Part shown: positions 6,255 to 58,505 of the stretch, piece after piece
How the letters are laid out: every line of letters begins with the position of its first letter
Numbering within the stretch: position 1 is the stretch's first letter
Assembly (NCBI GenBank): GCA_004431415.1
Contig: QPMI01000165.1
Span: 192,196-256,195 of the forward strand
Reading direction: 5' to 3'
From: Cyanophora paradoxa CCMP329
Taxonomy: Eukaryota; Plantae; Glaucophyta
Length of the DNA stretch: 64,000 nucleotides
Notes under the pieces: model-generated
The model's input: only the letters and a program-made list of their open reading frames with translations
The model's database searches: none
What the model was told of the DNA's origin: nothing
Position numbers and translations under genes: made by a program

Positions 6255-6645
6255 GAAGATCGTGAACCGCGGCTGCGGGGTCCGGAGAAGGGGCGGCGCC
6301 GGTGCCGGCACCGGGGTCGCCTGGTCAGCCTGGCAGCCGGTCAGTGTTGTTGCATGCGCGCGCAGTGCGGGTCCGCCGCCGGCGAACCTGTTGATTGCCG
6401 CCTCCCGGAAAGTTCTCATCCGCGGCGCCCCTTTCGACTTCACAGACGTCATTCCAAATCCCCGCTGACTCTGCAAGTTCGCCGTCTAACGGCTGCAGAT
6501 TCAACTCGTAGCCAGCGGTTCTCCAGGCGGCCAGCGGTTCTCCAGGCAGTCGGGATGGCAGCGAGGAGAATGCTTCTTGCAGCGGATCGTATGGTGGGTC
6601 TTGCAGCGGATCGAACGGTTCGAACCGCGCCAAATCGTCGCTCAT
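6255..6645 (-). pseudogene. Hypothetical protein N-terminal piece with intron 6330-6387
   Basis: MSDDLARFEPF...GNQQ|GTTCGC..ACTGAC..CCAG|ADQATP. Confidence 0.55.
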
Positions 6646-9455: not shown

Positions 9456-9879
9456 AGGCGCCGCTGGCGGCGGGCGCCCTCCGTAGAGACCGACAGGAGC
9501 GCAAGGAGCGCCACCACAAGGTACGTCTGGCCGTAGGTGATCTGGCGAGTAGTAAGTAAGCGTGCGCGGGCCGTCCGCTCTCCACTCTTACCTCGAAGGA
9601 CGAGCCCGCCGCGACCAGAATGGCCTGCACGATGACCCGCCCCACGAGCGGCTTGACCGCCAGCACCAGGGCGAGCTCCAGCGCACAGAAGAGGAAGTCC
9701 TCGCAATCCATCCGGCTCGCACACACAAGACCACCCCTGTACCCCCCCCCCTACCGCGTCGGACAGGTGGTGCGATTTATAGCGGCCATACGGCAACCGC
9801 AACAACACAGCATGGAGCCGGCCGATCTCGTATCCATCCGAACGTGCATCGAGCGTTGCGCCCCAGCTGAGGGAATGCC

Positions 9880-15856: not shown

Positions 15857-16100
15857 TCACGTGCCGGCACCGGGCCGCGCCGTGAACTGCTGGCGGGGGG
15901 ATTTGACCATGAAACAAACCACGATCTCCCAGATGCCCGGCGGCCCGATGGGGGGGGAGTTGGACCCGAGCACGAGGGGGTTCAGGGGCCAGACCAGGTG
16001 CGGCATTCGGAATCGCGCAATGTCGATGAACCGGCCGTAGGCCACGTCGAACCACGCCTGGTCACGGGGATCGGGGACCCCCTGTGAACCTCTTATTGGG
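15857..16100 (-). pseudogene. C-terminal domain paralogous to 56230-56400
   Basis: RDQAWFDxxYxRxxDxARFxMPH...WEIVVxFM occurs in both. Confidence 0.6.
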
Positions 16101-16469
16101 TGCCCTGCGGGGTCCATGAGCGCCGCGCCTCGGAGGGGGCCGCAGCGGGCGCAGACGCGGCCGCAGCGGCAGGCGAGGCGCCCGCACCCGTTGCATGGGT
16201 CCCGCTCGGCCCTGGGGGCCTTCTTTGGGCGCAGGACGAGGCGCGGCCACCCGGCGAGGGTGGACCCGGCGGCGCGCCAGGCGAGGGCGGCCGGCTGGGT
16301 GCCGACAAATAGCGCCGAGGCCTCCACAAGGGTGCAGAGGGTGGCACCACGGTCCAGGTCATCGACGCGAAGGGCGAGGAGTGGTCGCTGCGGGGTCGCC
16401 GCGGGGCGGAGGGCCTTGGCGGCGGCGCAGGAGGCCTGGTCGGCGAGGCCGAACAGGGCGATTGTCCGC

Positions 16470-16912
16470 AGAGGGTACCGACCTCGGCACGACCCTGTGC
16501 CGTCCCTGCCTGGGGCGCGACCGCATCAAGGCCTGGGCACCCCCGCCCGGCCCCGAGGCCCTCGAGCGGCCGGAGGCCCCCGTGCTGTTCAGGTGTGCGC
16601 CGCCGCCGCCGCCCCAGCGCCCCCCCCCCCCCCCCCCTCATGCGGGCGCGCCCCCTCAGGCGCATCCACCTGTTGAACGACTCCTGCCGCATCAACCAGT
16701 ACGCCCCGGTCCTGCCGATGGTGTGTATATGTATGCGCGCCCGCCCGCCCGCCGCCCCCCGCCGCCCCCCGGACCGTGCTGGCCGCTGCAGGTCCTGGCG
16801 ACCCTCCTGGACTTCACGGACGCCGCCGCGCCGCCCGTCCTGCAGCTGGAGGGGACGCCGACGGCGGGGGCCCTGCGCGAGATCGTGGAGGGCCTCCTCG
16901 GCATCCTGGGGT
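16470..16912 (+). pseudogene. Hypothetical protein fragment with introns 16593-16659 and 16721-16791
   Basis: GT..AG introns join three ORF segments: PVLFR|RIHLLND..PVLPM|VLATLLDF. Confidence 0.6.
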
Positions 16913-17275
16913 GCTCTTCGGCCCGGGCCCCGTCTACGTGATGTACCTGGGCAGGGACGAGGATGTGGTGGTGGTGGGCGACCGCACCCCGTGGGCGAAC
17001 ATGCGGGCCCGCCTGGGGCAGCCCAACCGGGACGGGGTGGTGCCCATTGTGCTGCAGTAGTAGTAATAGTCGCCTGTGTTCTCGATGAATAACATATCAC
17101 ACGCAGGGAAACCTAAACTCAGCCCCCCCTCAGTCACCCCCCTCCTCCATTGGGTCGACTAGTTCATGATCATCGTCGCCCACCGCCGCCGCCGCCGCCG
17201 CCGCCGCCTGCAGGATCGCGATGAGCCCCGGAGCGAGCTCGAGCAGCGGCGCCTCGCTGCCGCCGCTGCCGCCGC

Positions 17276-17309
<34 letters not shown>

Positions 17310-17453
17310 GCCGCTGCCTGGGCCTCCAAAAGGATCGGGCCGGTTGGTGATGTGGAAGGTCACGCGCTCGAGCCTCCCCGAGGTCAGGAGGGAGTGGATC
17401 GGCCCTTCATACTGGCGGAACTTGCTGGCCGCCGAGCCAGCCCCGGGCCCAGC

Positions 17454-18008
17454 ATGCTGTCGATGGAGAGCATGTCCTCCACGGCGCTCTTCGTCTTCCT
17501 CTTCAGCGCCATGCGTGGCAGCATCGTACCTGCGCTCTCATGCAAGCTGCAGTACATCCTGACGAACTCGATGATCTTCAAGCACGTAATCGGGTTCTTC
17601 GCGATGCTCACCTTCGTCGTGATGCCCGACCCCGACTACGAGAAGGAGAGCTTCCTGAAGCAGCTCGGGATCAACGCCCTGTACTACACCTGGTTCCTGC
17701 TCCTCAGCCGCTCGCACTGGACGGCGATCCTCGCCGTGCTCGCCGCCATCCTCGCCAACTACGTCCTCACGCTGCGGATCCGGAGCTTCAAGAAGCGGCA
17801 GGAGCGGCCGGAGGAGGTCGAGAAGATGCAGACCGCGACCCGGTGGATCACGATCGGCTCCATGGTCATCACCAGCATCGGCTTCGTCTACTACCTCGTG
17901 GATAAGATGCGAGAGTACGGCAACGGGTTCCAGGTCAAGACGTTCGTGCTCGGGAGCCTGGCCTGCCGGAACGACGACGTGGACAGCATCCCGATTATGG
18001 ATTTCACG
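17454..18008 (+). CDS. Conserved NCLDV multi-pass membrane protein, nearly complete
   Basis: LSCKLQYILTNSMIFKH...IGFVYYLVDKMREYGNGF..FVLG..C motif; stop lost at a junction. Confidence 0.65.
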
Positions 18009-18171
18009 ACGGCCCCTCGCCGCCATCACGGCCGGGGGCCACTCCCTCGGCGGCGCGATGGCGCACATCTGCGCCCTCGACCTCGCTGCCAACTCGACGC
18101 GCGGCCTGGGGGCGCCCCGCACGCGGATCGGGGCGTACTCGTGGGGCGCCCCCGCCGCCGGCGCGGCCACC

Positions 18172-18803
18172 TGGATGCAGCTCGCGGGGATGATGCCGCC
18201 GTTCGCGTCCTGGCCGTACGCCGAGTTGTAGAGGTCCTGCTGGAACTTCCAGCAGGCGCACTCGGGCTTGGTGGGGTTCGACTTGCAGTGCGTGTCGATC
18301 TTGGCGTTCAGGAGCGCGTACGACGAGGGGAACTGCGTCACCCCCGTCTTGAGGTACATGTTCGACCAGCGCGCGCACCGGGGGTCGGTGATGTTGACCC
18401 CCTCCGAGCAGATGCGGGGCATCTGCTCGAGGCACCACCCCTGGGTCACCCGCCGCGGGTCCTGGCCCGTCTGGTCGACGCACGCGCTGGCGCAACTGTA
18501 CTTGATCCGGATGGTCTTGCCTTCGCCCCAGGCGGGGTCGCCGGCGACGGCGCTCCAGGAGCTGGTGTGGCCCCCGTACGCCCCGCTGACCCACGGGCTC
18601 AGGCTCTCCCCCTGCCAGCCCACCGCCGGGTCGGTCATCCTGTCCTGTATGGCCTTCGTGAGGTCAATGTACCTGGAGGACGACCCGTAGTGCGCCTGCG
18701 TGACCACGGGGAAGGGGCACTGGAACCGGATGGTGGCCCCCGCCCCGTCTTCCGACCCCGTGAAAGTGAGGTCGAGGGGGGTGATGACGGCAGGGCTCAT
18801 CAT
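18172..18803 (-). pseudogene. SUEL/Gal-lectin domain plus Cys-rich (pox A16/G9/J5-like) protein, 3'-truncated
   Basis: AHYG, GDPAWGEGKTIRIKYSC; CKSNPTKPECAC. Confidence 0.65.
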
Positions 18804-19069
18804 TATTATTGGTGTGTCGTACTTGTTGCTACTACAGCAAATAAATAAACGACCACTAGAGCCCCAGAAACCCCGGGTCCGACTCCAGGAAGGCTCGCAC
18901 AGGCCGGGCGGGCCGGGGACCCTCTTGACGAAGAACTTGGCGTGCGCCATGCAGTACCGCCAGAACTGCGTGGGGCCGCAGCTGCCGTGGAACCAGGCCC
19001 GGCACCGCTTCTTCGTCACGTTGCCGTTCTTGTCCTTGGTTGGAGCACGTGGTGGCGTCACGTTGGAGC

Positions 19070-19297
19070 TACGGCTGAAGCTCCTGGCGCGCTTCTTCGC
19101 CGAGGGAGACCACTGGGCGACCTTTCTGGCCGCCGTGGCCGGGAAGCGCCCGGCGGCGGTGGGCGGCGCCGGCGGCGGCGGAGAAGACGAGGAGGAGGAG
19201 GAGGAGGAGGAGGAGGAGGAGGAGGAACGGCAGCAGACCGTCTCCCTCCGCGCGCTGGACTGGCTGGTCACCAACTACTCCAAGAAGCACAACACCG
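19070..19297 (+). pseudogene. Conserved NCLDV hypothetical (SLRxLDWxVTNYSKK family) fragment
   Basis: VSLRALDWLVTNYSKKHN. Confidence 0.75.
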
Positions 19298-19564
19298 CCC
19301 CGGCACCGGCGGCGATTCAAATTGAGTGATTGGCATGTTTAGATGTTGAACGAGGGGGGGCCGGCGGCGAGGGTGGGGGCAGCCGGGGAGGAATCCGCCG
19401 CCGCCTTGTGGGCCTTCTTGGGGGACGAGGCCTCGTCGCTTGCTGGGTCCGCCGCGCCCTTGCGCGCCCGCGCCTTCTTCGGGGGCTTCGGGCCGCCCTC
19501 CGAGCCGCCCTCGCCCTCGCCTGCGCCCGCGCCGCCGCGAAGGATGAAGCGGCCCTTCTCGTCG

Positions 19565-19735
19565 CGCACGACGCGTCGTTCCCTTCCGGGGAAGGCAGCA
19601 ACAACAACGCGGTCACCGTTAGCCTCCCCGGGGACCCCGATCGCCTGTGGGTGGTTGCAAAGAAGCCCATCGCAACGGACGGAGAGATCTACCTCGCGTA
19701 CGGAGAGACGTACTGGCATCAGAGGGGTCATCCGC
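19565..19735 (+). pseudogene. SET domain C-terminal piece
   Basis: NNNA...VVAKKPIATDGEIYLAYGETYW matches I..GEEI...YG..YW. Confidence 0.75.
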
Positions 19736-20284
19736 AGTTCGTCTTCAGGGACTCCGACGATCACGATGCCTCTAGGCAGCATGCGGGGGCCGGTCTGCAG
19801 CAGCTTCAGGAAGTAGGGGCAGTCCTCCGTCACGCGCTTGCAGATGTGTTCGATCATGCCGGACGGCCAGCGCTTGACATCCGCAACCCTGGAGAGGAAG
19901 AGGCCCGTCGACGTCGACGTACCCCCCCACCCTGGTCGGACGGACCGACGGACCGATCACAACAACCAACCGAGGAGACTGCAATATGCAGCCGCCCAGG
20001 CCTGCTGCTCCGGCGCCGGCAGTCCAGTACGTGTCGCGCGAGGCCCTTGCAGCGCAGGCGCCGCCCGCGCCGAGGCCGCCAAGGCCCAGGCCGAGGCCGC
20101 CAAGGCCCGCGCCGCCCTCGAGCTCGAGGCCGCCAAGGCCCGCGCCGCGCGCGAGGCGGAGCGCGAGGCCCAGCGCGCGGCCCTCGAGCTGGAGGCTGCC
20201 AAGGCCCGCGCCGCCCAGGAGGCCCAGCGCAAGGCCGAGCGTGCCGCCCTCGACCTGGAGGCCGCCGTGTGGGAGGTGCGGGTC

Positions 20285-20692
20285 CAGGTTGAAGTCTCTG
20301 AGGTACTCCGAGCCGCCATTCCCTCCTTGTTCTGGGTCGTAGGCACCGCGTGCCCAGATCCTGTCCCTGTTGATGAAGATCTCCGCCCCGCTGACGGGAT
20401 TAGTGAGGCTGTACTGCAGATACAGGGCACCCTCCTCGTCCTCTATGACCTCTGTGTTTGCGAGAGTGTACCGCATGGCCGACAGCAAGTTTTTCGCAGC
20501 ACACTCATCCATTGAAGAAAGCATGAAAGCCTTCTTCACTGTGCCGCTTTCCACAAGGGCAACCCTGATTGCGCTGGCCGCATCCAGCTCCTCCAGGCAT
20601 TTAGTCACTTCCCTTGCCATGGGGACATTAATGGCAGCCCCGACGGGGCCGCCAGTGCCGGCGCCGTTGCCGTTGGGGTTTCCGATTGCCAT
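20285..20692 (-). pseudogene. Hypothetical protein N-terminal piece
   Basis: MAIGNPNG...EYLRDFNLD coding-like segment after an AT-rich leader. Confidence 0.45.
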
Positions 20693-21677
20693 ATGTGTGC
20701 ATACATTACAGAGGTACGCATACAAAATTAATTGCGGCTCTACTCCCGCGAGTCCAGGGGGGAGGCCCGCGCCGAGGCCCGCGAGGCCCGCGAAGAGGTC
20801 GCGCGCCTCGAGGTCGCCCTGGAGGCGGCAACGGTGGAGGTTGAGGCGGCCCGCGAGCGGGAGGCGGCGCTCCTGGCCTCGGCGTGGGAGCGGGGCGCCC
20901 ACCACGGGCCCACCGCGGACGGCGACCAGGACTGCCTGGACCACCCCGAGGCGGCGGCCGACCCACACGCTTCCCCGAGGTGGTCTTCGTCGTGGTCACG
21001 GAGAGAATACCGGCCTTCTTGGGGCCGCGGCCGTGGACACCGACCGCGTTCTGGTACCGGATCCACTGGGCCAGAGTGGTGCGCTTGCCGCTGGGGTAGG
21101 CGTAGTAGGTGGCCCCATTTGCGCGACGTTTGCGTTGAATGGGCGCGCGGGCGGCCGCGGTCACGGTCCAGGTGCGGCCGTACGCAGCCTTCGTCGGCTT
21201 CTGAGCGACGATCGCGCTCTGCCGGAGGCCCTTCTTCAGGCCGATAACGCCCATACGGCGGTGGCCGCCGCTGGTGAAGTAGACGCGCTTGACGCGCGAA
21301 AGGCCGGCGTAGCGCCACCGCCGCCCCCGGAGCCGGCGGCGAACGCAACCCCGCCCACGGCGGGGCACTCCCTGCCGCCACGCAGGGCGCCGGCCGTCCC
21401 ATCGTCGATGATCTCGCTTCTGGCACAGCGGCTGGGGGCGGCGCCGCCCGTGGGTGGGCCCAGACCGGGCCCGTCTCCACGGGGCGGGACCACCGCGGCC
21501 ACCGCCGCCGGTGGCGACAACACCGCCGCGACCGCCGCCGCCGGCCAGATTACCCTCAAACGCCCCCCCGGCCCCCCTCGCACTAGTGCCCCCTCGATCG
21601 CATCCTTTCTGAACGTAGAGGTTTCCAAAAGGGTGAAGAAATCCCTCTGAAACCAGTCTTTGTGTGACACTACAGAG

Positions 21678-21930
21678 CTAAGCTAGCTCCTGCATCGCCG
21701 CGAGGATGCGGGGGAGGGCCTCCCGCGCGAGGTCCCTCGCCGGCTGGCGAGAGTCAAGGCGCAGAACGGGGATCTTGCGCCGCCGCTCGACGCTGCCGAT
21801 CCACTGGGTGTACCGGTCCGCGAGCCCCGGGATGGTGTCGATCGCCTCCTGTGGGTCGCCCCGCCCCTGGGCGCGGACCTGGCAGAGCTCCGGGGGCGCC
21901 TCCACGGAGACGATCAGGATGGCATCCGCA
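21678..21930 (-). pseudogene. Deoxynucleoside/thymidylate kinase C-terminal piece
   Basis: ILIVSVEAPPELCQVRAQGRGDPQE (lid region)...VLRLDS; P-loop absent. Confidence 0.55.
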
Positions 21931-22184
21931 ACAAGGCGGCCTCCGTCCGCGTCCGCGGCTGCGTCCTCGACCCGCGCCGGCCGGCCGGCGACCCGACCAT
22001 CGACGTGCGGGAGGCGCTCCTGGCCCTCCGGGCGACGGACCGGCTGTGGAACAGCGAGCCGCGGCCGGGCGGCCGGCGCGGCTCGGCCCTCGCCCCCCCC
22101 GAGGACCCCGAGGACGTGGCGGCGCTGGCGAGGCGCTACGATCGCCAGGAGTAGGAGCAAGTGTATATGTGTACAGTGCCGAAG

Positions 22185-22535
22185 TTACAGGGGCCGCCGG
22201 TGCCTCGTCTGCCAGAACGAGTGGCCGAAGTGAGGTCGCTCGCCGCGGGCCAGGCGCATGTCGCGCTCGACATCCGCGCGGGGGATGGGGAACGGGTACT
22301 CGGGGTTGTAGGCGGGGGGCGGGAAAACAGTACCGGGCGGCAACCCCCGGTAGGGGCGCGGCCTGTCGTCGCGCACGTAATTCGACGGCATCGGCGGCGC
22401 AGAGGGGGCGGGGGGCACGTATGCGGGCCGGGGTGGGGGCAGCGGGGGCGCAGAGGGGGTGCGGTGCACGTAGTAGGGGGGGTCAGCGAGGTAGCCCGAG
22501 GGATCAGTGAAGTGGTACCGGTAGGAGTCGGACAT
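22185..22535 (-). CDS. Pro/Tyr-rich small protein with PSAP and PPxY motifs
   Basis: MSDSYRYH...PSAPP x2, PPYY, PPAY. Confidence 0.55.
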   Translation of the reverse strand: MSDSYRYHFTDPSGYLADPPYYVHRTPSAPPLPPPRPAYVPPAPSAPPMPSNYVRDDRPRPYRGLPPGTVFPPPAYNPEYPFPIPRADVERDMRLARGERPHFGHSFWQTRHRRPL

Positions 22536-22708
22536 CGTTTTACAGGCTCGGGAAGAAAAAAACAAAGAGCGAACGCTTACGATACGCGCGCGACGGCTCT
22601 GAAGAAGCTCTTCTGCGCGCGCGGCAGGCCCCTGGGCCGCGCTGGAGGCGAGATGACGTGGCGCGAACGACGTACCCCCCTTACACCATACCCCCCCCTC
22701 GCAAGCGG

Positions 22709-24700
22709 ATGCAGCCGGAGCGTGCTCGCAGCGGCTCTCCTGACCCGAAGCGGAGTCGGTTGGACCCAGATAGCTCGTTTGGAGCTGGAGGGGGCGCTCC
22801 CCGGGGCCCCGAGGTGCGCGCGCGCGTGTTCACCTGCTGCGGACGTGCGTCCGGCCGCTGACGCGACCTGAACGCAGCCCGCTGGCAGTTTGCAGCCCGT
22901 TGACGCGCCAGGGAACCTCCCTGGAAGCCAGGCGAGTGGTGCATGTGCGCGTTCGCATGCGTCACCCGATGCCGCGCGCGCAGGGGGAGCCTGCTGTTGC
23001 TGTTGCTTCTGTGGAGGTCGAGCAGGCACGCCCGCCGCCCCCGGCCCCGCCGCTGGCTGCAGCTGCTAGCTGAGGGCCGCCGCGCGCAGGCCGACTGCAT
23101 GCTGCTGTCCATGCTGCCCCCCGAGCTCATCACGAAGATCATCCTCGCCCCCGGAGCCGACGCGCGGCGCGTGCTGGCCCTCTTCCGCTCAACGTGCCGC
23201 CTGGCCCGCCGCCTGGTCTGCGCGCGCGTGTTTGTTCGCCGCTGCCCCGCCCGGCCCGCCTCACCGGGGCGGCCCCCTAGGGCGAGGACGTGTTCCCGAT
23301 GCTGGACCCCGGGGCGCCGCTCGCCGTCTGCATCTCCGGCCCCCGCGGCCACCACGGCCTCGAGGACCGCATCGGCAACCTGGAGCTCGCGAACGTCGAC
23401 GCCGAGCGGACCAGGCTGATCCAGGAGCGCCCCTCTGACGCGAAGGCCTGCGCCAAGCGCGGCATCTTCTTCTACAGCGACAGGGAGGACCCGTACCGCC
23501 TCGCCGACCTGGTAAAGGTGAAGCGGGGCGCCAACGTCTTCGTCGACACCATCGCTGAGGTGCGCGGGCCCGGCCCCCGCTTCGTCCCGTCCCTCTCACG
23601 CACGCGGGCGCCCTCCAGGCGGCCCGCCTCATCGTGGGCGAGGACGGCAGCGGCGGCCCCGGCAGCGAGTACTTTGCCACCGCCACGAGGCTCCGCCTCA
23701 TCCTGGCCACCAACGAGGCGCTGGACGACGCCAACACGGCGATCCTCGCGTTCCGTGGCCGCTTCAAGGAGATCACCTTCGAGCTCGTCAACTTCATCCT
23801 GGACTACAGGCGGCCCCCCTTCGTCCGCGTGCCGGACAAAGGCGCCGTCAACGGGCTCGCCCCGTGGATGCAGGAGCACCTCTTTGTGCGCCCCCCCCCT
23901 CCCTCCCGTCCCGCCCTCCAGCTTACCGCCTCGGCGCAGGCCCCCTACCCCCCCGACGAGAGCTTGCTCGGCTGCTGGCCCGAGCGCATCCGCATCGCGG
24001 ACAGCACGTGGTTGCCGCAGCGCGCCCCCTGCGCCATCCGCGAGCCCGGCGGCGGCTTCACCGGCCTTGCCTTCCTCGACGAGGTCCGCCTCCGCCCCGG
24101 CCCCGCCCCGCCCAGCCTGACCCTTGCACCCCCAGTTCACCATGCCGCCCCCCGGCGTCAAGGAGCTCGGCTGCATCCTCGCCCTGGTCCCCGAGACTTC
24201 CGGCGCGGCGATCGCCAGCAAGCTGCACTGCACGGCGGAGGACCCGCTCGTCGTCGAGGGCCTCGGTGTGAACATGAACTTCCCCCACGTGCCCTTCTTC
24301 GCCGACTACGGCGGCGTCATCAAGCCCCTGGCGGACCTGGCCGCCGGCCGGCTGCGGGCGCGGAGGGCCCTGCTCGAGCTCAGCGGCTGGGAGCCGGACA
24401 CTCCTTTTGTCGAGTCGGTCATACCGCCGGCCGACCTGGCCGACGCCATCCTCAAGCTCCTCGTGAAGACCGGCGGCGAGGTGCGGGTCTTCTTCTCCGC
24501 GTACACCGCGACCGGCGACTACCCGGGGCGCTGGGGGCGGGCGCTCGGCCGCTTCGTCCCGCTGGTGCGGCGCCCGCGCTGCGGCTATATAATCGGCCAC
24601 TACTTCTTCTCGGTCCTGGCCGCCATCGTGCGCGGCTACGGGGGAGGCGGCCTCAGGATCGTCCTCGAGGGGTGCGTGCGGGGCCGGGGGCCGGCCGGCT
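22709..24700 (+). CDS. Intron-rich F-box protein (7 predicted introns)
   Basis: Introns 22814-22877, 22932-22983 (GC-AG), 23026-23089 (GC-AG), 23234-23280, 23560-23618, 23886-23939 and 24084-24135 link several ORF-track frames into one frame; F-box LSMLPPELITKII; 3' end uncertain. Confidence 0.7.
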
Positions 24701-25829
24701 GCCGGGGCGCTTACCCGGTCGACCGCTCGCAGGCTCGATATCGGCGAACTCGAATGGCATATGAAGAACACGGGCCTCGTCGAGGCGCTGGCGGCGCGCC
24801 CGCCCCGCGAGATCCTCCTGCTCAACTGCCCTGATGATGATGATGCCGCGGCGGGAGGCGGCGGACCGGGCGCAGCGGGCAGCTGATCCTGAGACTGGCT
24901 ATTCCGCTTCACACTGGAGCCGCCGCCTCCTCCGCCGGTGACCGGAGCGGCCGCGGCGGGCTGCTGACCCTTCGGCCTGGACTCGCCGACGCCTCCTCCG
25001 GTGGTGGCCGGAGCGGGAGGCGGAGCGGCAGCGTGCTGATTCGGTCGCTTCACAGGAGCGGCCGCAGCGAGCTGCTGGCGCAAGATCCAGAACCTGGGGC
25101 TGGATGTGCGGGCCTTGCCCAACGACCACCCGATCTTCGACTTCAGTGGGAGAGTGGGATTCTGGGAGACTGTCCGTGCTGCCCGTCAGAGCTTCGAGGA
25201 CTACTACAGGCCCAGGGGCCTGTGGACGCCCGCCTTCATCCAGAGCCGCATGCTGCAGAACCCTGCCGCCTGGTATTTCTGGGCGCGCGAAGATATGCCG
25301 TCGCGCCTCGGTCAAAACATGTTCGATCCACAATACGCAAGAGACATCAACGCCGGCAGCATCCTCTCGGACCCCGCCCTGATGTACCTCCCCGCCGACC
25401 TGACCGCCGTCGGGCAGGTCTGCCGCGCCTGGCGCGCCTGGCCGGGGGCCCGGGAGGAGCTCGCGGCGGCCGCCCTGAACGCCGCGCTGGGGCTCGGGCC
25501 TGAGGACCCCTGCCCCCTGGAGCCCTGGGCGCGGGCCGGCTACCCGGGCGGGCTCGAGGGGCCCTCCGGGACCTCGAGGGCCGCCCCGGCCAGCCGAGCG
25601 CCTCCCTCCTCCGCATCCGCCACCTCCTGTGGGAGGAGGGGGCAGCCTGCCCGGCGGCGGCGCCCTGCGCTACCCGATCCGGGCCGCGTCGGCGGCGGAG
25701 GCGAACGCCGCCGTCGAGGCCGAGGTGGCGCGCTTCGTCGCGGCGGGGGACGCTGTCGAGTCCGGGCTGCTCACGGGCACCGGCGCCGGGACGGCCCTGG
25801 GCCTCGCCGCCGCGTGGCAGCTGACCACG

Positions 25830-26007
25830 CGCGGCCCCGTCGGGCGCCCTATCGTCCGTTTCATGTACTACCCCGACCAGGAGGACGAGGTCTCCCTCGA
25901 CGGGTCCCCGTCGGATCCGGAGTAGCGTAGGCGCATGTCATTGTTAATGCAGTCCAGCAGTGCGCGTACTGGTCGCCGCGCGTCCGGGCAGTCGTCGGAT
26001 TTCTGCA
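25830..26007. repeat. 178-bp exact copy (inverted) of 42804-42981
   Basis: Base-by-base reverse-complement identity. Confidence 0.95.
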
Positions 26008-26526
26008 GTCCCACTCTAGTGGAGGCCGCCGCCGCCATGGCCCTCAGCTCTGATGCCTGCCCTGCCCCGCCTGTGCATGTTCGCATGCTGCTGCTTCTAT
26101 ATAGGCTGAACTGCCTCCGCTTGTGAGAACATGATTCTAATGCACTCCACTGCACGCCGCCCGCCCCCCCCCCACCGCCCTCCACACCGCCCCACTCAGC
26201 CCACCCAGCCCCGCGGCCCTCCCCCCTACCCTCCCCTACCCCTCCCCCGGGCCCCTCCCCCCCTACCCGCCCAACCGCTATGAACCACTTTCACAGCTGG
26301 GAACCGGTTGTGCTTTCCGAAGGCATCTGCAGCCTTAAGAGACGACCGCCGAGTCTGCTGTGGGAGGAAGCATAGTAATTCACGATGGGGGCCGCGGTCT
26401 CCTGGAACAGGACCACGCCGTAGTGGTACGCCCAGTACGCGGGGTCCCCCGCTGAGTAGGGGTTAACGGGCCCGTCGCCTCCGCGGCCACCGCCGCCGCC
26501 GCCGCGGTCCAGCAGGCGCTGATAGC

Positions 26527-27188
26527 CGTTGGGGGGTACCCTGGGGGTGACCGGGGCGACCACCCTTGCGAACGCCTCAGTGGGGGGCACGCTTGGGGTG
26601 ACGGGGAACACCACGCTGAGCACCCTTGGGGTGACGGGGGCCACCACGTTGGGGGGTACCCTTGGCGTGACCGGCGCGACCACCCTGGCGAACGCTTCGG
26701 TGGGGGGCACGCTTGGGGTGACGGGGGCCACGACGCTGGCCGGCACATCGGTCGGGGGTGCGCTCGGGGTGACAGGGAACACCACGTTGGGGGGTACCCT
26801 TGGCGTGACCGGGGCGACCACCCTGGCGAACGCCTCGGTGGGGGGCACGCTTGGGGTGACGGGGGCCACGACGCTGGCGGGCACCTCGGTGGGGGGTACG
26901 CTCGGGGTCACAGGGAACACCACGTTGGGGGGTACCCTTGGCGTGACAGGGGCGACCACGCTGGCAAACGCTTCGGTGGGGGGAACGCTAGGGGTGACCG
27001 GAAACACGACACTGAGCACGCTCGGGGTGACGGGGGCCTCGACACTAGCCGACACCTCGGTGGGGGGTACGCTGGGGGTGACAGGGTCGACGACGCTGGG
27101 GGGTAGCCTGAGCGTGACAGGGTCAACTACGCTGTCGGGTGGTCTCCAGTCCACAAACGTTTCCAATGCCACTGACGTGACAAGTGGC
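26527..27188 (+). pseudogene. Fibre protein repeat segment (GGTLGVTGATTLANASV repeats)
   Basis: Tandem degenerate 11-17 aa repeats, synonymously diverged. Confidence 0.85.
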
Positions 27189-27698: not shown

Positions 27699-30600
27699 CT
27701 AGAACCTGTACCCCCTCCGAGCGCCCCCCCGCCCTCCTAGACGGCTTCCTCGGCGGTGCATACCCCCCTCCGGCTCGGGCCGCCACGCAGCCACCGGCGG
27801 CGGCGGGCGAAGGGGCGGCGGCGGCGGCGGCTCGGCTCGCCAGGCGGCCGGCGACGGCGGGCCAGGGGGCACCGGCTGCGGCTCGGCTCGCCACGCGGCC
27901 ACCGGCGCCGGCGGCGCCGGCGGGCGCTGTGCGGGCGGTGCCGGGCCCCGCCCCGCCGGTGGGCGAAGAAGGGGCGGCGCCGGGGCCGGCGCCGGGGGCG
28001 CCCCCATGCTGTACCCCATGTACACCCTCCCGAGCGCCGCCTCGAGGTCGTCCAGGGTCCACGGCCGGCCCGGCCGCCGCCTGAGGAAGTGCCTGATGTT
28101 GGCGTCTTCCAGCGCCCCGGGCCCGCCCCCCAGCCGGTCCATGCAGTGGTCCGGCGGCATCAGCGAGTTCGACGCCGACGCGAGCGGCCTCAGGTGGTCG
28201 GCCCGCACCCGGCAGTGGACCGCAGTTTGGCCCTGGCCGTACATCGTCTGGCCCCTGGCGATGATGTCGGCCGCGAGCGAGGCCAGGCCGATCACGTCGA
28301 ACTCCTCGTCGCACCGCATGCAGGGGGTGCGCGGGCGGTCGGGGACGTGCTCAAGGTGGGCCCCGGCTCCGGCCCCGCCGGCTGTGTTCGCCTTGGCGAT
28401 CTCCTCGGCCACGCACTCGTGGGGCAGGAACGCGCCCCTCGTCGGGGGCTCGCTGCCGGGGTCGAGCGCCCCGCGGAGGCGCCCCGGCAGCTTGCTGTCG
28501 CCGCCGCCTCCGGATGCGTTCTTCAGCGCGCCGCCGCCAAAGTCAAGGAGGACGAGCCTGCGCGCCGCCTCGAGGGGGTTCTCGTTGATGTTCAGGGGGG
28601 CGTACTGCCCCGGCCGCGGAGGGAGGGGCCGGATCCCCACGTTCTCGAGCTTGAGGTCGCAGTGGGTGAAGCCGGCCAGGTGCAGGGCGCGGACGGCGGG
28701 GATGAGGCGCAGGACCGCCGCCAGGGCGAAGAAGACGAGGTTCCCGTGCTCCACGCGCACCCTGCCCCCCTTGATGGCATCCATCTCCTTCTTGAGGTCC
28801 GCGCCCTCTTGGTCGTCCCCCGGCCTCCTGCCCGGCGCCAGCTGCAGGAGCTCGGAGATCACGCAGGGGGCGGGCGCCCCCCTGCCCTGGTTGTTCGCGC
28901 CCCACCCGATGCGCGACGGGCGCTCCAGGGTCCAGCCGAGGGTATTCGGGAGGGCGGGGGCCGCCCTGCGGGAACCGCCGCCGCCGATCAGCTCGCGGGC
29001 CCACGGCTTCCCCGCGGCGAGGTCGGCGTCCTCGATCCGAATGAGCGCGTTGAAGGCGGCCATCGCCCCCGCCAGCTCGAAGATCGCGTCCCGTGCCCCC
29101 GCCTCGGGGTCGTACGGGAGCTTGACGGCGACTCTCCGGGGGCCGTATTCCGCCACGCAAACCTGGGCGTTCTTCCCCCTGCCCAGCTCCTGGTTGAAAT
29201 CGATCCGGATGCTCCCGGGGTTCACGTACAGGGACCCCTGCCCCAGCTGGGCGAGGGCGTTCCCGATGGGCGTGCCCCGGACCCCGGGAGCCTCCGAAAC
29301 GAGCCTCCACCAGCCCATGCAGTCCTTCGCAGTGACGGGTTCCTTGACGTAGTCGCGGGTACGACCGCCGGCCCCGAACAGCCGGCCCACGCCGGACGCG
29401 AACGGAATGCGGAAAGACGCCGCGGGTGTGGTCGGGCTCGGGCGCCTGCTCATCTCCACGGGCCCAACTGGGCGTGCCGCCACTGGGCGCCTGCTCGTCG
29501 ATCTCTCCAGGCCTTGGGGCGCGACTGTGCGAGCTGTCGCACGCGGATCGCCCGCGGCGGTACTCCCGCTCCTGATCCAGGGGTGGTTCTCCATGGCCCG
29601 GAGCGTGCGCGTCCGCCCTCTGTCGCTCGTGTACATGAGGAAGTCGTACAGGAACTTCTGCAGCGCCGGAGAGGCCTCCCCACGGGTGCACTTCGAAGGG
29701 TCTTGCTGTCCCATGCCCAGGGAGGGCGGACTGAGGCGAATGCCAAACAGCATTGCCATCGTTAACGAGCACGTCGGGGAAACGCCGGCGATCCTCCCGT
29801 CGGGGTGGATATCAGTAGGCTCCCATAATGGCACGCCCGCCGGCAGTGTCAGCCCGAGAACGATCGCTGCGATCTGGTACACGAGCCTTGCCTCGTCGCA
29901 TTGGCAGTCGGGGGCCGAGTGGCCGTAGGTAGGTCTCCCGTCCGGGTAGAACATGCACTCGGGGTTGACGAGGGTCGTGGCGTAGTCCGTGCTGTGTTCG
30001 CCATTGATGCCACGTATCCACACGTCCCCAAAATCTATAAGGACCGGCGTCATCGTGGAAGCCGAGCGGCGGAGCCCAATGTTCATTGTCTTGAGATCAC
30101 AGTGCCGGATGCCGCCGTCGCCGTGGGCCGCTCCCAGGAGCCGGCAGCCCTCTACGAGCTGGAGCACTATCCGCTTGAGCTCCTCCTCAGACAATCGACG
30201 AGCCCCCTGGCGCGGTTTTCCGTCGTTTTCCGTCGGTCGCAGGTCATGAAGTGTACCGTAAAGCCTCTCCATGACTATGGCAGGGGACGGGTCCGCGCCA
30301 AAGGTGGTGTAACCCAGAACCCGCATGATGGGGGCCGCGTCCCCCCGGTCAAGTGCAGCGGCATGTGCAGCCAGCGGAACGCACAGCTCGCGGACGACAT
30401 CAATGCCTACAGCTGGGGCCACGGAATTATAACTGGATGCCGCAGCCGGGGCAACGGACCCAGCCCCGCGACCCGCCTGGCGCTCGGGCGGTTTGGCTTG
30501 CTTCACAGCCACTTCCTGCCCCTGGTACGTCCCCAGCACGACTTTCCCAAATGATCCCGTGCCTAGCACGTTTTTTGCAAACACCCGGACCTTGTTCGAA

Positions 30601-30737
30601 TCCAGCCTGAAACCTCCCTCCAGGACCTTCATTAGCACCCCGACTAGGTGTGAGTTCTCCGCCGTGAACCCGGCGGCCTTCAGCCTAGCGTATGCCACCT
30701 CGCACTGGGCGCGGACAAGGGGCGGCACAGGGTCCAT
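27699..30737 (-). CDS. Ser/Thr protein kinase with two kinase domains, 1012 aa, apparently intact
   Basis: Domain 1: GTGSFGKV, VAVK, HCDLK..N, DFG. Domain 2: GRGKNAQV, VAVK, HCDLKLEN, DFG. Pro-rich tail. Confidence 0.9.
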   Translation of the reverse strand: MDPVPPLVRAQCEVAYARLKAAGFTAENSHLVGVLMKVLEGGFRLDSNKVRVFAKNVLGTGSFGKVVLGTYQGQEVAVKQAKPPERQAGRGAGSVAPAAASSYNSVAPAVGIDVVRELCVPLAAHAAALDRGDAAPIMRVLGYTTFGADPSPAIVMERLYGTLHDLRPTENDGKPRQGARRLSEEELKRIVLQLVEGCRLLGAAHGDGGIRHCDLKTMNIGLRRSASTMTPVLIDFGDVWIRGINGEHSTDYATTLVNPECMFYPDGRPTYGHSAPDCQCDEARLVYQIAAIVLGLTLPAGVPLWEPTDIHPDGRIAGVSPTCSLTMAMLFGIRLSPPSLGMGQQDPSKCTRGEASPALQKFLYDFLMYTSDRGRTRTLRAMENHPWIRSGSTAAGDPRATARTVAPQGLERSTSRRPVAARPVGPVEMSRRPSPTTPAASFRIPFASGVGRLFGAGGRTRDYVKEPVTAKDCMGWWRLVSEAPGVRGTPIGNALAQLGQGSLYVNPGSIRIDFNQELGRGKNAQVCVAEYGPRRVAVKLPYDPEAGARDAIFELAGAMAAFNALIRIEDADLAAGKPWARELIGGGGSRRAAPALPNTLGWTLERPSRIGWGANNQGRGAPAPCVISELLQLAPGRRPGDDQEGADLKKEMDAIKGGRVRVEHGNLVFFALAAVLRLIPAVRALHLAGFTHCDLKLENVGIRPLPPRPGQYAPLNINENPLEAARRLVLLDFGGGALKNASGGGGDSKLPGRLRGALDPGSEPPTRGAFLPHECVAEEIAKANTAGGAGAGAHLEHVPDRPRTPCMRCDEEFDVIGLASLAADIIARGQTMYGQGQTAVHCRVRADHLRPLASASNSLMPPDHCMDRLGGGPGALEDANIRHFLRRRPGRPWTLDDLEAALGRVYMGYSMGAPPAPAPAPPLLRPPAGRGPAPPAQRPPAPPAPVAAWRAEPQPVPPGPPSPAAWRAEPPPPPPLRPPPPVAAWRPEPEGGMHRRGSRLGGRGGARRGYRF

Positions 30738-31387
30738 TGGACGTCTTTCACCACATCACACATGGAAAAAATTAGCCTAGCTGCCGGGCCCGCCCCACGA
30801 CGAGGGCCCGCGGCCCCGCGATGCGGCGCACGGCCGCGAGCGTCGGCGCGTCCGCGCCATCGGCCGAGAAGACGACGAGGGCCGCCGCCGGCCCCGCGCG
30901 TCGGCCTCCTCGGCCGCCCGCTGCACCCGCCGGAACGCCCGCTCCCCGCCCACGAGGGCGCCCTCCGTCCACTCCTCCAGCAGCCGTGCGCGGCCCCCGG
31001 GCCCCGGGATGTAGAACGTGATCGCCTGGAGCTCCGGATTCTCCTCCATGAACCGCACCACCGACTCGCCGTCGGGGTCGGCGCCGCCGTGCCACCAGCA
31101 GTTGCGGAACTCCAGGTGCGTGGCCCCCCTCATGAAGGGAGGGAACGGAGAGGCACGCGTTCCGTGCGGTGAGCCCCACGGCGTGGCGCACCAGGCTGTT
31201 CAGCACGCCGGTCACCTCCCTGACCTGGTCCTCGAGGGCGCGGAGGCGAACAAGCGTGTCGGGCGAGGCAGACATGGTTTATATATGCGAGCGTAGGATG
31301 GGATGGGGCGAGAACATTTCGCGGCCCGCGCGTCCGCACCTGCGCCGGGAAAGTCGGGGTTTGGAAGTGCATACGGCGGCGATATCG

Positions 31388-32423: not shown

Positions 32424-33064
32424 CTAAACTGGGTGCTCGTTGAAGCGGGGCGGCGTGCGGACTAGGAACACGGGCGGGTCCTGCCTGGCCCTCTTCCGCG
32501 GCCTCGGCGCCGCCTCCTCCCCCTCCGCGACGGCCGCCGCCGGCCGCAGGGCCGCCGCGCGGATCTCGTTGGTCGCCTCCCCCCACTTGTAGTAGACGCT
32601 GCCCCCGAAGCGGCGCGCCACGGCCCGCGTGCTCTCGTTGAAGAAATCCCTCAGCGATGCGACCTCGCCGGCCCAGCGCCGGAGCTCGGCGATCCAGAGG
32701 GGGAGCGCCTGCTTGGGGGGGCCCGCGATGCGCACGGCGAGCAGGTTGTTGAGCAGGTCGATGCCGCACGCCACGAGCATCTGCATGACCTGCACGCGGG
32801 CCCGCACGCGCTCCCGCCTCCGCTCCCGCATCAGCACCAGGGACTTGAAGCGTTCCTCGGTGAGCTCCTTGGTGAGGTACTTGAGGCGGATGTCCTCGTT
32901 CGAGCGGGGGTTGTACGCCGCGACGTTGGCCGCCGCCCCCTCGATCTCCACGCGCTGGACGTGCACGACGAGGCGGTGCAGCTCCGTCACGGGGCGGACG
33001 GCCTCGTGGACGTGCGGCGGGCCCCCCGAGTCCACGATGTGGGCCACGATGTCCGCAAGGCGCG
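32424..33064 (-). pseudogene. NCLDV RBR (Ariadne-like) E3 ligase, C-terminal piece
   Basis: NEDIRLKYLTKELTEERFKSLVLMRERRRE matches the NxDLRxxYLxxEIxExxFK tail of this family. Confidence 0.75.
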
Positions 33065-37167: not shown

Positions 37168-37744
37168 TCAGCCAGGGGCCGCGTAGGCGACGCGGATCTC
37201 GGAGGCGCGCACGGGCGCGCAGGCCCCGTCGCGCCGCCTCGCGCCGGCGCCGTCGAAGAACCGGGCGAGGGCGCGGAGGATGCGGAAGGGCCCGCGGAAG
37301 CGCGCGACGAGGCGCTCGGCCATCCCGCCGTCCGGGTGCGAGGGCCCGAACGCCTCGTCGAGCCACGCGGCGAGCAGCACCAGCGCGTGGCGCCCGACCA
37401 GGGCGGCGAGCTGCCGGCACGAGGCCGCGGCGCGCGCGAGGTTCGCCAGGCCCTGCAGGCGGTCCGCTTCGTCCTGGCCGGCGTGCGAGAGGATCTGCGG
37501 GGGCCGGCGCAGTCGGCGGTCGGCCGGCGAACGGCGCGCGAGTGCGTGTGCCGACCTTCACGATCAGCGAGTCCGGCAGGAGGTTCAGTCGTGCGGGGCG
37601 GGCCAGGGGCGCCGACTTCTTCGGGCGCTTGCTGCAACGGCGGCACGGCGGCCCGGCCGGCGCCGGCGCCTGCTCGGTGGCGGCGATGCGCGCCAGGTGG
37701 CCCAGGCACTCGCGCTGCAGTTCCCGGGAGACGGAGGGCCCCAT
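37168..37744 (-). CDS. F-box protein with intron 37495-37555
   Basis: LNLLPDSLIVK|GT..CAG|ILSHAG..LARAAASCRQL restores a complete F-box. Confidence 0.65.
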
Positions 37745-46980: not shown

Positions 46981-47586
46981 GCCGCGGAGGTGGAGGAGAT
47001 GGAGATATTGTTCATCGTTGCGTTTGCGGGCTAGCGCTGCAGCTGGCTCTTACAGGTTGGGGGCGGGAAAAGATGAATCAGAGGAGGCGGAAGACAGGGA
47101 CGAGTTTCCAGTACGTCGGGCCGAGGTCAGGGCGGTAGCGCGATCGGACCCGGTAAGGGAAGCGGAAGCTCGCAATGCGCATCAGGCGCACAGGCAGTCC
47201 GTGCTGTTGCCGCGGACGACGATGACCACCGGGGCCTCCGCCCCGCCGCGGCCGGCGGCCGGCGCCGTGCAGAGGATGCCCATGGGCCGCGGGCGCCCGT
47301 CGTCGCGAGGGCCCGCAGCTTGAGCTCCTGCACCGCGCACCACGCCTCCCACGTCCAGGGCCGGGCCTCCGGCGGGGAGGCCGTCGGCGGCGAGCGGCAG
47401 GACCACGTGGGCGAGGTGCCAGATGCTAGACCCGGAGCCCCCGCCGGAGATGGGGAACTCGGGGCGGGTGAAGTTGATGCGGTAGACCGGGGGGCCCGGG
47501 CCTCGACGTGGACGCCCCACATCAGGTTCGCGTGGGCGGCGCCCAGCGCCCTCACGGGCGCGGGGCGGGGCACCTGCGCCGGCCTG

Positions 47587-47805
47587 TCAGCCGCTGCCGG
47601 CCAGCAGCGGAACCGGTGCGCTGCCCCTTACCTGCAGCAGCAGCAGCGAGACCTCCCTGCGCACCGCGGCGAGCACGCACCCCTCGAGGGCGGCGCGCGC
47701 GGCGCGGCACGTTCGGGCGAACCGCGCCACGTCGGCGGACGAGAGCGGCGGCGCCCCGGCCGGCGCCGCGATGGCGCGCAGGAGCTCGGCCGGCAGCAGC
47801 TCCAT
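47587..47805 (-). pseudogene. F-box protein N-terminus
   Basis: MELLPAELLRAI...VARFARTCR. Confidence 0.6.
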
Positions 47806-48475: not shown

Positions 48476-48817
48476 ATGTCCGGTGGTTCGTTGACCCATC
48501 TCGCCGCCGTCGGCGCCCCCGATGCGTACCTTTTCGGTGCGCCGGCGGTCACCTTCTACAAGGGCGTGTACCAGCAGCACACCAACTTCGCCATGGAGTT
48601 CATGGAGACGACCTTCAACTCGGCCAACTACGGCCACAGCGTTACCGCCGAGATCATCCGCACCGGCGACCTCCTCTCGAGCATGTACCTCGTCCTGAAG
48701 ATCCGCCCGCTCCTCAACGGAAGCAACACGGGCAGCGTCTTCTTCGTCGACAAGCTCGGGTACGCCATCATCAACAAGATCGAGCTCTCCATCGGTGGCA
48801 CCCTCATCGACACCATC
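48476..48817 (+). pseudogene. NCLDV major capsid protein (or paralog), N-terminal piece
   Basis: MSGGSL..LAAVGAPDAYL.G.P.VTFYK.VY..HTNFAME...RTGDLL...IELSIGG.LID; TATATA about 30 bp upstream. Confidence 0.92.
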
Positions 48818-49019
48818 CTGCCGGTGTTTGCAGCACCGAACACCACCGATGCGACGTCCAGCATCGTGCCGACCTGCTCGGCAGTCGCGCGGCCCGCGTC
48901 GAGCTCGCGCCGCAGCAGGGCCGGCCACGCTGCGGCCGCCGCCTCTTCCTCCTTGGCGGCGGCGCAACCGGTGAACCATGCAAAGGGAAGGCAGCTCGCG
49001 ACGGCCTGCGCATGCGCTT

Positions 49020-49195: not shown

Positions 49196-50163
49196 CGGCG
49201 GCCGGCGCGGGGAGCTGCAGCGGGGAGGCAGCGGCCTCCTCCTCGTCCTCCTCCTCCTCCTCGTACTCCTCGGTGCCTTCGCAACAGCGGCGCGAGAGCT
49301 CACGGGCGCGGTGCGCGCGGCGCTCCCGGTCAACGCACGCTGGCACCGCAACGACCGGCTGGCCTTCTACGACATCTGCATCCTGCGCACCGTTGCGCCG
49401 ACGGCGCAATCGCTCCTTGCCGGCCTCCGGGGCGGTCCGGCCGGCGCGCCGCTCGTCGAGGCGCTCTCTCGCATTTTGGCGGGAAACCGACGGACCGTCG
49501 AGAACCTCGCGACCGTCCTCGCCAAGGGCTTCATGTCCTCGTACAAGATGAGGATGGCGGCAGGCGAGCGGCCGGAGGCGCGGGCGGGCCGCCTGCTGCT
49601 CGACCTGGCGGCCCACATGACTTCCCACGCCGGCAGCGACGCCCAGGTGCGTGCCGCGGCGTGTCGCATGATGCAAGGCTGAAAACTGCCCGCGCGCAGG
49701 TGCGCCCCGCGGCCGCCGGATAGCAACATGGCGTGTCACATGATGCGCGCGCCGCAGATCATCATCGCCGAGGGCGGGGTTGGGCGCGCCGCGCGCGTGC
49801 TCGGCATGCACATGGCGATCCTCGGGCTGGTCGACCCCGCAGACCCCCTCGTCGACTTTGACATGTGGGTGGCGCTCCGAGGCGACCTCCGCCCGCCGCC
49901 GGCCGCTTCGGATCTGGCGGCGGCGCTGGCGGCGGCGGCCCGGGGCCCGCGGGGCGGATGCCGCGGCCCGCCCCGCCCTCGCACGTGCCCGTCGTCGGGC
50001 AGCCCGCGGGACCGCCGCCACCGCCGCCCCTCCCATCGTGGCCCGGCGACCTCGTCGCCGCCCTGCTGGTCGGCCTCGTGCCGGCGTGGGGCGCCGCCCC
50101 GAGCGGCCTCCCCGACCCCGACCAGGAGGCGCGGGCCCTGCTGGCGGCGCGGGGGCTGCGGCT

Positions 50164-50413
50164 GCGGGAAGCCGCCGCACGGGACGTCCCCCCGCGCCCG
50201 GTCCAGGCCGCCGTTGCGCCGGTACCAGTCGTAGTAGTGGGGGTTGTGCACGACGCCCTGCTCGACCCTCCCCGTCTTCCACGAGAAGGCCGTGTGGCAG
50301 GCCGTGCACCACATCTGGTCGCAGCCGCTGATCTTGAAGATGAGGGCGCGGCACGAGGGGCAGGACTTGCAGTCCCGCAGCATGGTGGAGACGGAGGCGG
50401 CGACGTCCGGGTC
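50164..50413 (-). pseudogene. NCLDV RBR E3 ligase, RING2/Rcat piece
   Basis: CPSCRALIFKISGCDQMWCTACHTAFSWKTG...HNPHYY...PCGG. Confidence 0.9.
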
Positions 50414-50600
50414 ATCCCGAAGCGCCCAATCTATGTCTACTCCTTCGCCCTCGACCCCGAGGACTGGCGCCCGACGGGGACCCTCAACTTCAGCCGCATC
50501 AACGAGGCGCTGCTCAAGTTCAACATGCCCGTGGGCGACAACGGAGAGCCCGCCACGCCTGCCGGCGAGATCTTCATCTTCGCCCGCTACGTCAACATCG
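50408..50600 (+). pseudogene. NCLDV major capsid protein, near-C-terminal piece
   Basis: IYVYSFALDPEDWRPTGTLNFSRI...IFARYVNI. Confidence 0.92.
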
Positions 50601-58422: not shown

Positions 58423-58462
58423 CGGACCCAACTTCAAAAGTCGGACCGTCGGCGGTCGGCGG

Positions 58463-58505
<43 letters not shown>

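What the first reader, a model, noticed from the sequence alone, without database searches (positions are those of the whole stretch)
22709..24700. Viral-context genes carry many tiny spliceosomal introns, including GC-AG, almost all phase 0
Seen: removing seven 47-64 nt introns (donors GTGCGC/GTTCGC/GTCCGC/GCGAGT/GCACGC, mostly CTNAC/CTGAG-like branch points, YAG acceptors) fuses separate ORFs into one F-box gene. Similar introns occur at 1662-1723, 6330-6387, 16593-16659, 16721-16791, 37495-37555 and 49647-49757. All but 16593-16659 are phase 0. None was seen in the capsid, fibre, lectin, kinase or core-enzyme pieces. Inference: a nucleus-transcribed gene class in an MCP-bearing virus, or post-integration intron invasion that preceded the shattering. 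My manual detection may favour phase 0.
Basis: partly seen in the sequence, partly recalled or inferred. Interest (0 to 1): 0.7.

Follow-up and report, generated by a model that had tools for sequence, protein, structure and literature searches.

The report
Host-style introns in shattered algal virus
A scrambled giant-virus insertion in the alga Cyanophora holds genes with predicted tiny host-style introns, eight in one intact gene, which likely mark a class of viral genes read by the host nucleus, as recently shown for a latent green-algal virus.

Summary
The introns hold up as sequence features, but no transcript confirms them. The window is a mosaic of Nucleocytoviricota gene fragments; the focal gene matches a Cyanophora paradoxa gene model exactly. 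The public model uses the same introns 5-8 and the intron-4 acceptor; introns 1-3, with both GC donors, rest on signal scores only. Of 16 candidate introns 14 are phase 0; 12 follow exon-end AG, which lies 75% in phase 0 in this GC3-95% DNA, so most of the bias is a by-product. Introns are GC-richer than exons, a reported peculiarity of this host. All six intron-bearing genes with a visible start have a GTAC+G/C-run upstream motif (6/16 vs 0/30; hand-picked starts). Best reading: a host-transcribed, spliced gene class of a latent giant virus, like punuivirus latency genes, older than the shattering (55%). No free relative was found, and the protein has no homologue; its F-box is below Pfam threshold. 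A new case of a known kind.

The parts
22672..22682 (+). GTAC + C-run upstream motif, 37 nt before the ATG (candidate promoter element)
   Evidence: GTACCCCC 27 observed vs 4.1 expected in the window (about 10 lie in fibre repeats)
22709..24886 (+). Complete 9-exon gene, predicted 574 aa: low-complexity N-terminus with PKRSR basic patch, F-box-like motif (23096-23233), ORFan body
   Evidence: no homologue but itself among 1.84 billion representatives for exon 8
22814..22877 (+). Intron 1, 64 nt, GAG|GTGCGC..CTGAC..GCAG, phase 0 if ATG 22709 is used; strong signals, weak coding flanks
   Evidence: absent from P0001
22932..22983 (+). Intron 2, 52 nt, CAG|GCGAGT GC donor; least certain
23026..23089 (+). 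Intron 3, 64 nt, CAG|GCACGC GC donor; in-frame GT alternative at 23017
23216..23280 (+). Intron 4; acceptor 23280 shared with P0001; donor 23234 (reader, 47 nt) or 23216 (P0001, 65 nt, higher score); phase 0 either way
23560..23618 (+). Intron 5, 59 nt, phase 0
   Evidence: same in P0001
23886..23939 (+). Intron 6, 54 nt (3n, no stop), phase 0
   Evidence: same in P0001; not needed for the frame
24084..24135 (+). Intron 7, 52 nt, phase 0
   Evidence: same in P0001
24672..24732 (+).
   Evidence: same in P0001
1662..1723 (-). Intron, 62 nt, phase 0, in gene starting 1891 (GTAC motif at -32)
6330..6387 (-). Intron, 58 nt, phase 0, in complete 273-aa gene starting 6645 (GTAC motif 126 nt upstream); flanks score weakly
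9542..9591 (-). New candidate intron, 50 nt, phase 0, in gene starting 9711 (GTAC motif at -31)
16593..16791 (+). Two introns (16593-16659 phase 2; 16721-16791 phase 0) in a fragment without start
37495..37555 (-). Intron, 61 nt, phase 0, inside an F-box-like motif of gene 37744 (GTAC motif at -39)
   Evidence: profile of four other window motifs scores spliced E 0.0026 (positions 4-35), unspliced E 0.8 (4-18)
47574..47631 (-). New candidate intron, 58 nt, phase 0, in F-box-like gene 47805 (GTAC motif at -20)
49647..49757 (+). 111-nt intron that reads as two related units, 49647-49699 and 49700-49757, joined by CAG|GT with no exon
   Evidence: 16 of 17 nt shared, z 8.7, the only related pair among 17 introns compared
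48476..48820 (+). NCLDV major capsid protein, N-terminal piece, TATATA upstream, no intron
   Evidence: Pfam Capsid_N E 7e-17; PBCV-1 capsid E 4e-17
50402..50590 (+). NCLDV major capsid protein, C-terminal piece
   Evidence: Pfam Capsid_NCLDV E 1e-9

Best explanation
The window is a scrambled insertion of a nucleocytoplasmic large DNA virus in Cyanophora paradoxa, and its predicted introns likely belonged to a class of viral genes that host RNA polymerase II would transcribe and the host spliceosome would process, before the insertion was broken up. Shown: viral fragments, intron signals with matching frame steps, a shared GTAC+G/C-run upstream motif. Inferred: the motif is the promoter of an early or latency module (F-box-like and other ORFan proteins, several with basic NLS-like patches); a long nuclear or latent phase in this host let these genes gain introns tuned to its spliceosome (about 60 nt, GC-rich, AG|G exon ends, some GC donors), whereas capsid and core genes behind A/T-run or TATA promoters would be read by the viral machinery and stayed intron-free. 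Phase 0 dominates mostly because exon-end AG falls on CAG/GAG/AAG codons.
For: NCLDV markers in the window. Host named by the exact gene model. Motif in 6 of 6 intron genes with a visible start and in 10 intronless genes, against 0 of 30 others with introns (P 0.0009 with a 130-nt window chosen after seeing gene 6645; 5/14 vs 1/32, P 0.007 at 80 nt; random ATGs 77/1212). An intronless 795-nt F-box-like gene (828+) has the same motif and layout, which ties the class to intron-poor viral DNA. Intron GC 0.80 vs exon 0.70 matches the host being the one species of that survey with introns GC-richer than exons (PMC6142364 figure legend); host introns are short, mean 86 nt (PMC6704402). Fragments look fresh: GC3 0.92-1.0 in most, CpG o/e 1.05, one 178-nt duplicate 100% identical, yet introns are unrelated to each other bar one tandem pair, so not a recent introner burst. 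Precedent: punuivirus, 61 of 506 genes with host-like introns in a latency module, virion genes on a viral promoter (10.64898/2026.10.09.758095).
Against: No homologue of the focal protein and no free relative of the virus, so viral origin of the intron genes rests on context and the motif. Eight introns in one gene is the host's density (9.2 per gene), far above punuivirus (2.5) or pandoraviruses (1.2). Gene starts were picked by eye, with the introns known. The motif was not tested on host promoters. Intron absence from core pieces is not significant per gene (P 0.13). My finder gave 13 antisense control calls against 16 sense calls at a loose filter, so single introns outside the focal gene are individually uncertain.
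Confidence: 0.55

Rival explanations
1. Introns were gained after integration, in a resident viral relic, by the host's ordinary intron-gain process; the virus itself was intron-free. Shattering came later.
For: Introns look fully host-like. This was the standard reading of GEVE introns (recounted). One tandem-duplicated intron pair shows intron creation in this DNA.
Against: Introns are confined to one promoter class and piled eight deep in one gene while 13.2 kb of hand-picked long coding runs have none; the DNA shows little decay; GEVE genes of this host are reported as methylated and methylated genes as mostly silent (PMC12344493; not tested for this locus), which leaves little route to neutral gain.
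Confidence: 0.2
2. The intron-bearing pieces are host genes (or genes recently taken from the host) mixed into the viral fragments by the process that scrambled the region.
For: Host-like intron number and style; the focal gene is whole (2.2 kb) where the median coding segment is 318 nt; F-box proteins are common in eukaryotes (own knowledge).
Against: Exon 8 has no homologue among 1.84 billion representatives, a library that includes EukProt proteins; the upstream motif is shared with intronless genes of up to 795 nt and recurs in a non-coding repeat block at 58160-58425; F-box expansions are typical of giant viruses (PMC5995976).
Confidence: 0.17
3. Most are not introns: GC-rich spacers and rearrangement junctions that happen to carry GT/GC..AG ends.
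For: No spliced read seen; antisense control 13 vs sense 16 at a loose filter; 21,679 in-frame solutions exist for the first 390 nt; P0001 is itself a prediction.
Against: Five consecutive frame steps in one gene are resolved by segments of 52-65 nt with consensus ends and branch words, the same ones an independent predictor chose; splicing restores an F-box-like motif at 37495 and a complete 273-aa gene at 6330; 12 of 16 have exon-end AG against 4.6% background.
Confidence: 0.08

Closest known systems
Punuivirus latency module (Chlamydomonas reinhardtii GEVE; bioRxiv 10.64898/2026.10.09.758095; read: abstract, sections 5 and 11, passages)
   Same: Endogenous nucleocytovirus; a minority of genes carry host-like spliceosomal introns; virion genes sit in a separate promoter class.
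   Different: Punuivirus is intact, expressed and makes virions; introns average 176 nt, 2.5 per gene, GT-AG; the intron class is marked by 6mA and the named motif belongs to the lytic class. Here: glaucophyte host, shattered, median 60 nt, up to 8 per gene, likely GC donors, a sequence motif before the intron class; expression untested.
Chlorophyte GEVEs with predicted introns (PMC9693826; read: passages)
   Same: GC-rich integrated giant viruses with 25-72 predicted spliceosomal introns; origin before or after integration stated as unclear.
   Different: Those are long collinear elements in green algae; this is a fine-grained mosaic of gene pieces.
Pandoraviruses (PMC5995976; read: passages)
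   Same: Validated spliceosomal introns in 7.5-13% of genes, many ORFans, F-box expansions, host nuclear transcription.
   Different: About 1.2 introns per gene, also in virion-protein genes; no canonical capsid protein detected in their virions, whereas this element has a double-jelly-roll MCP.
Intron-rich mirusviruses (PMC12768974; read: passages)
   Same: Large DNA viruses with many spliceosomal introns implying nuclear transcription.
   Different: Different realm (HK97 capsid); introns enriched in virion genes, the opposite of the pattern here.
Cyanophora paradoxa GEVEs (PMC12344493; read: abstract, section 9, passages)
   Same: Same host; methylated clusters of Nucleocytoviricota-derived genes already reported.
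   Different: The passages read do not analyse introns, promoter classes or fragmentation of these elements; its supplements were not opened.
Introners in viral elements (PMC12166617; read: passages)
   Same: Introns inside integrated dsDNA viral elements.
   Different: Introners form sequence families; these introns are unrelated except one tandem pair.

Membership tests
U2-type spliceosomal intron | GT/GC..AG ends, branch site, removal restores the frame | tested here: met
   firm for introns 4-8, weaker for 1-3 and the singles
U2-type spliceosomal intron | Excised from the transcript | tested here: inconclusive
   no informative RNA data (see Tried and rejected)
Giant endogenous viral element (Nucleocytoviricota) | NCLDV hallmark genes | tested here: met
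   MCP N and C pieces, C962R-type primase, YqaJ recombinase, DUF7197 (weak)
Giant endogenous viral element (Nucleocytoviricota) | Integrated in a host chromosome (virus-host junction) | not testable with these tools
   no genome held; no host flank recognised in 64 kb; inferred from the host gene-model match and the fragmentation
Punuivirus-type latency module | Introns confined to a non-virion gene class with its own regulatory signature | tested here: inconclusive
   motif association P 0.0009-0.007 on hand-picked starts; absence from core pieces P 0.13 per gene
Punuivirus-type latency module | Expression during latency, 6mA at starts, intact inducible genome | not testable with these tools
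   no methylation data; this copy is shattered
Punuivirus lineage (Imitervirales) | Phylogenetic placement | not tested
   no close MCP relatives retrieved to build a tree
F-box protein (Pfam PF00646/PF12937) | Score above the Pfam cut-off | tested here: not met
   E 1.7, 9.1 bits vs 20.5; three other window motifs E 0.0003-0.011, also below cut-off; the motifs align with each other
Introner elements | Introns form a family of similar sequences | tested here: not met
   only 49647/49700 are related

The most novel reading that the evidence does not exclude
This is the wreck of an undescribed latent giant virus of glaucophytes whose genome was split into two regulons: a GTAC-box class transcribed by the host, with introns so host-adapted that single genes reached host intron density and used GC donors, and an intron-free A/T-promoter class. 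It would be an independent origin of the punuivirus design in a third archaeplastid lineage, and the motif would let one predict the latency genes from sequence alone.
Probability: 0.35. Interest if true: 0.65.

Novelty: new member of a known kind. Interest (0 to 1): 0.45.

Why it matters
Whether introns in integrated giant viruses are scars of decay or working parts of the virus was stated as open (PMC9693826) and has one detailed positive case (punuivirus preprint). A second case in a distant host, with a sequence motif that tracks the intron class, makes the question testable by a genome-wide count of motif, introns and gene class in Cyanophora. It also warns that ORF-only annotation misses such genes. 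The phase-0 pattern itself is mostly ordinary.

Tried and rejected
RNA: no RNA holder listed for 16000-25000. This is no evidence on expression. DNA contigs X1 (22633-23669, 23680-25377, 27946-30831) and X2 (48405-49804) match with no differences and bridge fragment joints, but may be the window's own sample. Homologues: exon 8 in viral contigs gave two short weak hits, unrelated by tblastn; MCP found nothing in viral or metagenome contigs or among longer proteins and only itself at near length; 17463 gene nothing; glycosyltransferase one 26%-GC contig at 43% identity sharing no other gene; motif scan gave 9 unrelated contigs. AlphaFold of P0001 without alignment: mean pLDDT 40; fold search meaningless. 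NCBIfam and Rfam: nothing useful. First finder run was too permissive (79 calls). Manual phase bias: implanted introns were recovered 86/132, 100/132, 104/132 for phases 0, 1, 2, so the finder does not favour phase 0, and its loose calls were 11/3/2 for phases 0/2/1 (trained on the focal gene, so circular there). One of 47 gene starts (51522) had a wrong coordinate and was dropped; three others had no ATG near my coordinate and were left out. Host phase and GC-donor frequencies were not found. Earlier findings: three look-ups, nothing. A possible intron at 1031-1078 was dropped because the frame reads through. Literature searches for a prior description of these introns or the GTAC motif listed none; bioRxiv supplements were closed and the supplements of PMC12344493 and PMC6704402 were not opened.

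Full report
Setting. The window is 66-76% GC throughout; no genome is held. A codon model and Pfam show a mosaic of short gene pieces on both strands: 86 coding segments of 90 nt or more, median 318 nt. Of 82 pieces scanned, hits include Capsid_N (48500-48820, E 7e-17), Capsid_NCLDV (50402-, E 1e-9), a C962R-type primase, YqaJ, a fibre chaperone, a glycosyltransferase and TspO; the capsid piece matches PBCV-1 capsid and Nucleocytoviricota clusters. The two capsid pieces lie 1.6 kb apart with unrelated pieces between. The only database match of the focal gene is a EukProt model of Cyanophora paradoxa that equals window exons letter for letter, which names the host. GEVEs in this alga are already reported as methylated clusters (PMC12344493).

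The observation. The seven introns exist as described and give an open frame from ATG 22709. An eighth, 24672-24732, is phase 2 and carries the frame to TGA 24884, so the gene is complete at 574 aa rather than broken at 24700. Exons 4-8 are coding in one frame only and the introns in none. The public model shares introns 5-8 and the intron-4 acceptor (donor 23216 rather than 23234; both phase 0) and starts at Met 23099; published genes of this alga were predicted with RNA-trained BRAKER1/AUGUSTUS (PMC6704402), so this is a second prediction, not a transcript. The F-box is below Pfam cut-off; the body has no homologue among 1.84 billion representatives (exon 8).

Other introns. Both 60-nt flanks score positive in the assigned phase for 11 of all 16. 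Two have extra support: splicing 37495-37555 restores an F-box-like motif (E 0.0026 vs 0.8, best non-training hit of all six-frame ORFs) and splicing 6330-6387 gives a complete 273-aa gene instead of 106 aa. Against this, my finder made 13 antisense control calls for 16 sense calls at a loose filter (some controls reused the real introns); at score 3 or more with both flanks 10 or more it gave 4 sense (introns 4-7, its training set) and 0 antisense. Single introns therefore remain individually uncertain.

Phase. 14 of 16 are phase 0, more than the 44.3% eukaryote mean (PMC10639083; P 5e-4). But 12 of 16 follow exon-end AG (background 4.6%, or 10% at phase-0 positions), and with GC3 at 95.5% three quarters of AG| sites are phase 0. 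Given the exon ends, 10.3 are expected and P is 0.02. The AG preference is primary and explains most of the bias; a small residue and hand selection remain. Implant tests show no phase-0 bias in the finder. Host phase data were not found.

Host match. Median length 60 nt against a host mean of 86 nt and 9.2 introns per gene. Introns are GC-richer than exons (0.80 vs 0.70), and C. paradoxa is the single species of a 2018 survey with that property (PMC6142364 figure legend). The introns are not a repeat family; only 49647-49699 and 49700-49757 are related.

Gene class. GTACCCCC occurs 27 times against 4.1 expected, TATATA 44 against 0.6 (overlapping counts). Among 46 starts picked by eye, GTAC with a G- or C-run precedes all 6 intron genes that keep a start and 10 intronless genes, while none of 30 other starts has an intron (P 0.0009, 130-nt window chosen post hoc; 5/14 vs 1/32, P 0.007 at 80 nt). 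The capsid and glycosyltransferase genes have TATATA or A/T runs instead, though A/T runs did not separate intron from intronless genes (P 0.38). No intron was seen in 8.1 kb of structural and core pieces (P 0.03 per intron, 0.13 per gene).

Timing (inferred). Introns at 1662, 9542, 47574, 16593 and 49647 lie in frame in pieces that break within tens to about 150 nt, so they predate the scrambling. The DNA shows little decay (CpG o/e 1.05, GC3 0.92-1.0 in most pieces, a 100% identical 178-nt duplicate). Eight unrelated introns in one gene beside intron-free neighbours fit gain under function better than neutral invasion of a dead relic.

Mechanism and comparison. The likeliest reading (55%) is a two-class viral genome like punuivirus, where 61 of 506 genes carry host-like introns in a latency module and virion genes use a viral promoter (10.64898/2026.10.09.758095). 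Pandoraviruses, chlorophyte GEVEs and mirusviruses give further precedent for introns in large DNA viruses. Rivals are post-integration gain (20%), host genes mixed in (17%; the focal gene's intron number is the host's, not a virus's) and false introns (8%). No free relative was found to decide. Membership in the punuivirus lineage was not tested; the claim is that it works alike.

Verdict. Real by sequence, unconfirmed by RNA; new member of a known kind; interest 0.45. The motif-intron link is the part worth following; the phase-0 pattern is mostly ordinary.

Noticed in passing
window 1-64000: The whole window is a fine mosaic of barely decayed viral gene pieces (median 318 nt) in both orientations; short-read contigs bridge several joints without differences. 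The mechanism of this scrambling is unexplained and may be more unusual than the introns.
   Followed up: partly
window 49647-49757: Two related intron-like units in tandem joined by CAG|GT with no exon, like a recursive splice site or a duplicated intron; removing only the first gives a stop.
   Followed up: partly
window 58140-58480: AT-rich non-coding block with four GTACCCCC copies, a 36-nt direct repeat and short palindromes; could be a viral terminus or origin.
   Followed up: no
window 25830-26007 and 42804-42981: 178-nt inverted duplicate, 100% identical, with different neighbours on both sides.
   Followed up: no
window 6645-6823, 9711-9812: One GTAC motif lies between divergent gene starts in two places, which would fit a bidirectional element.
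   Followed up: partly
window 26400-27170, 41308-42290, 62749-63144: Three pieces of 17-aa repeat fibre genes, one ending in a Peptidase_S74 chaperone.
   Followed up: no
window 32514-33053, 46561-47016, 50168-50413: Scattered pieces that look like parts of RING/IBR-type ligase genes (IBR weak; the rest by eye); with five F-box-like motifs they suggest a rich ubiquitin toolkit.
   Followed up: no
window 9906-11120, 29814-30737: A coiled-coil gene and a kinase with GC3 near 0.7 against 0.93-1.0 elsewhere: a second compositional class or source.
   Followed up: no
window 2672-2866: TspO/MBR fragment (Pfam E 1e-7) among the viral pieces.
   Followed up: no
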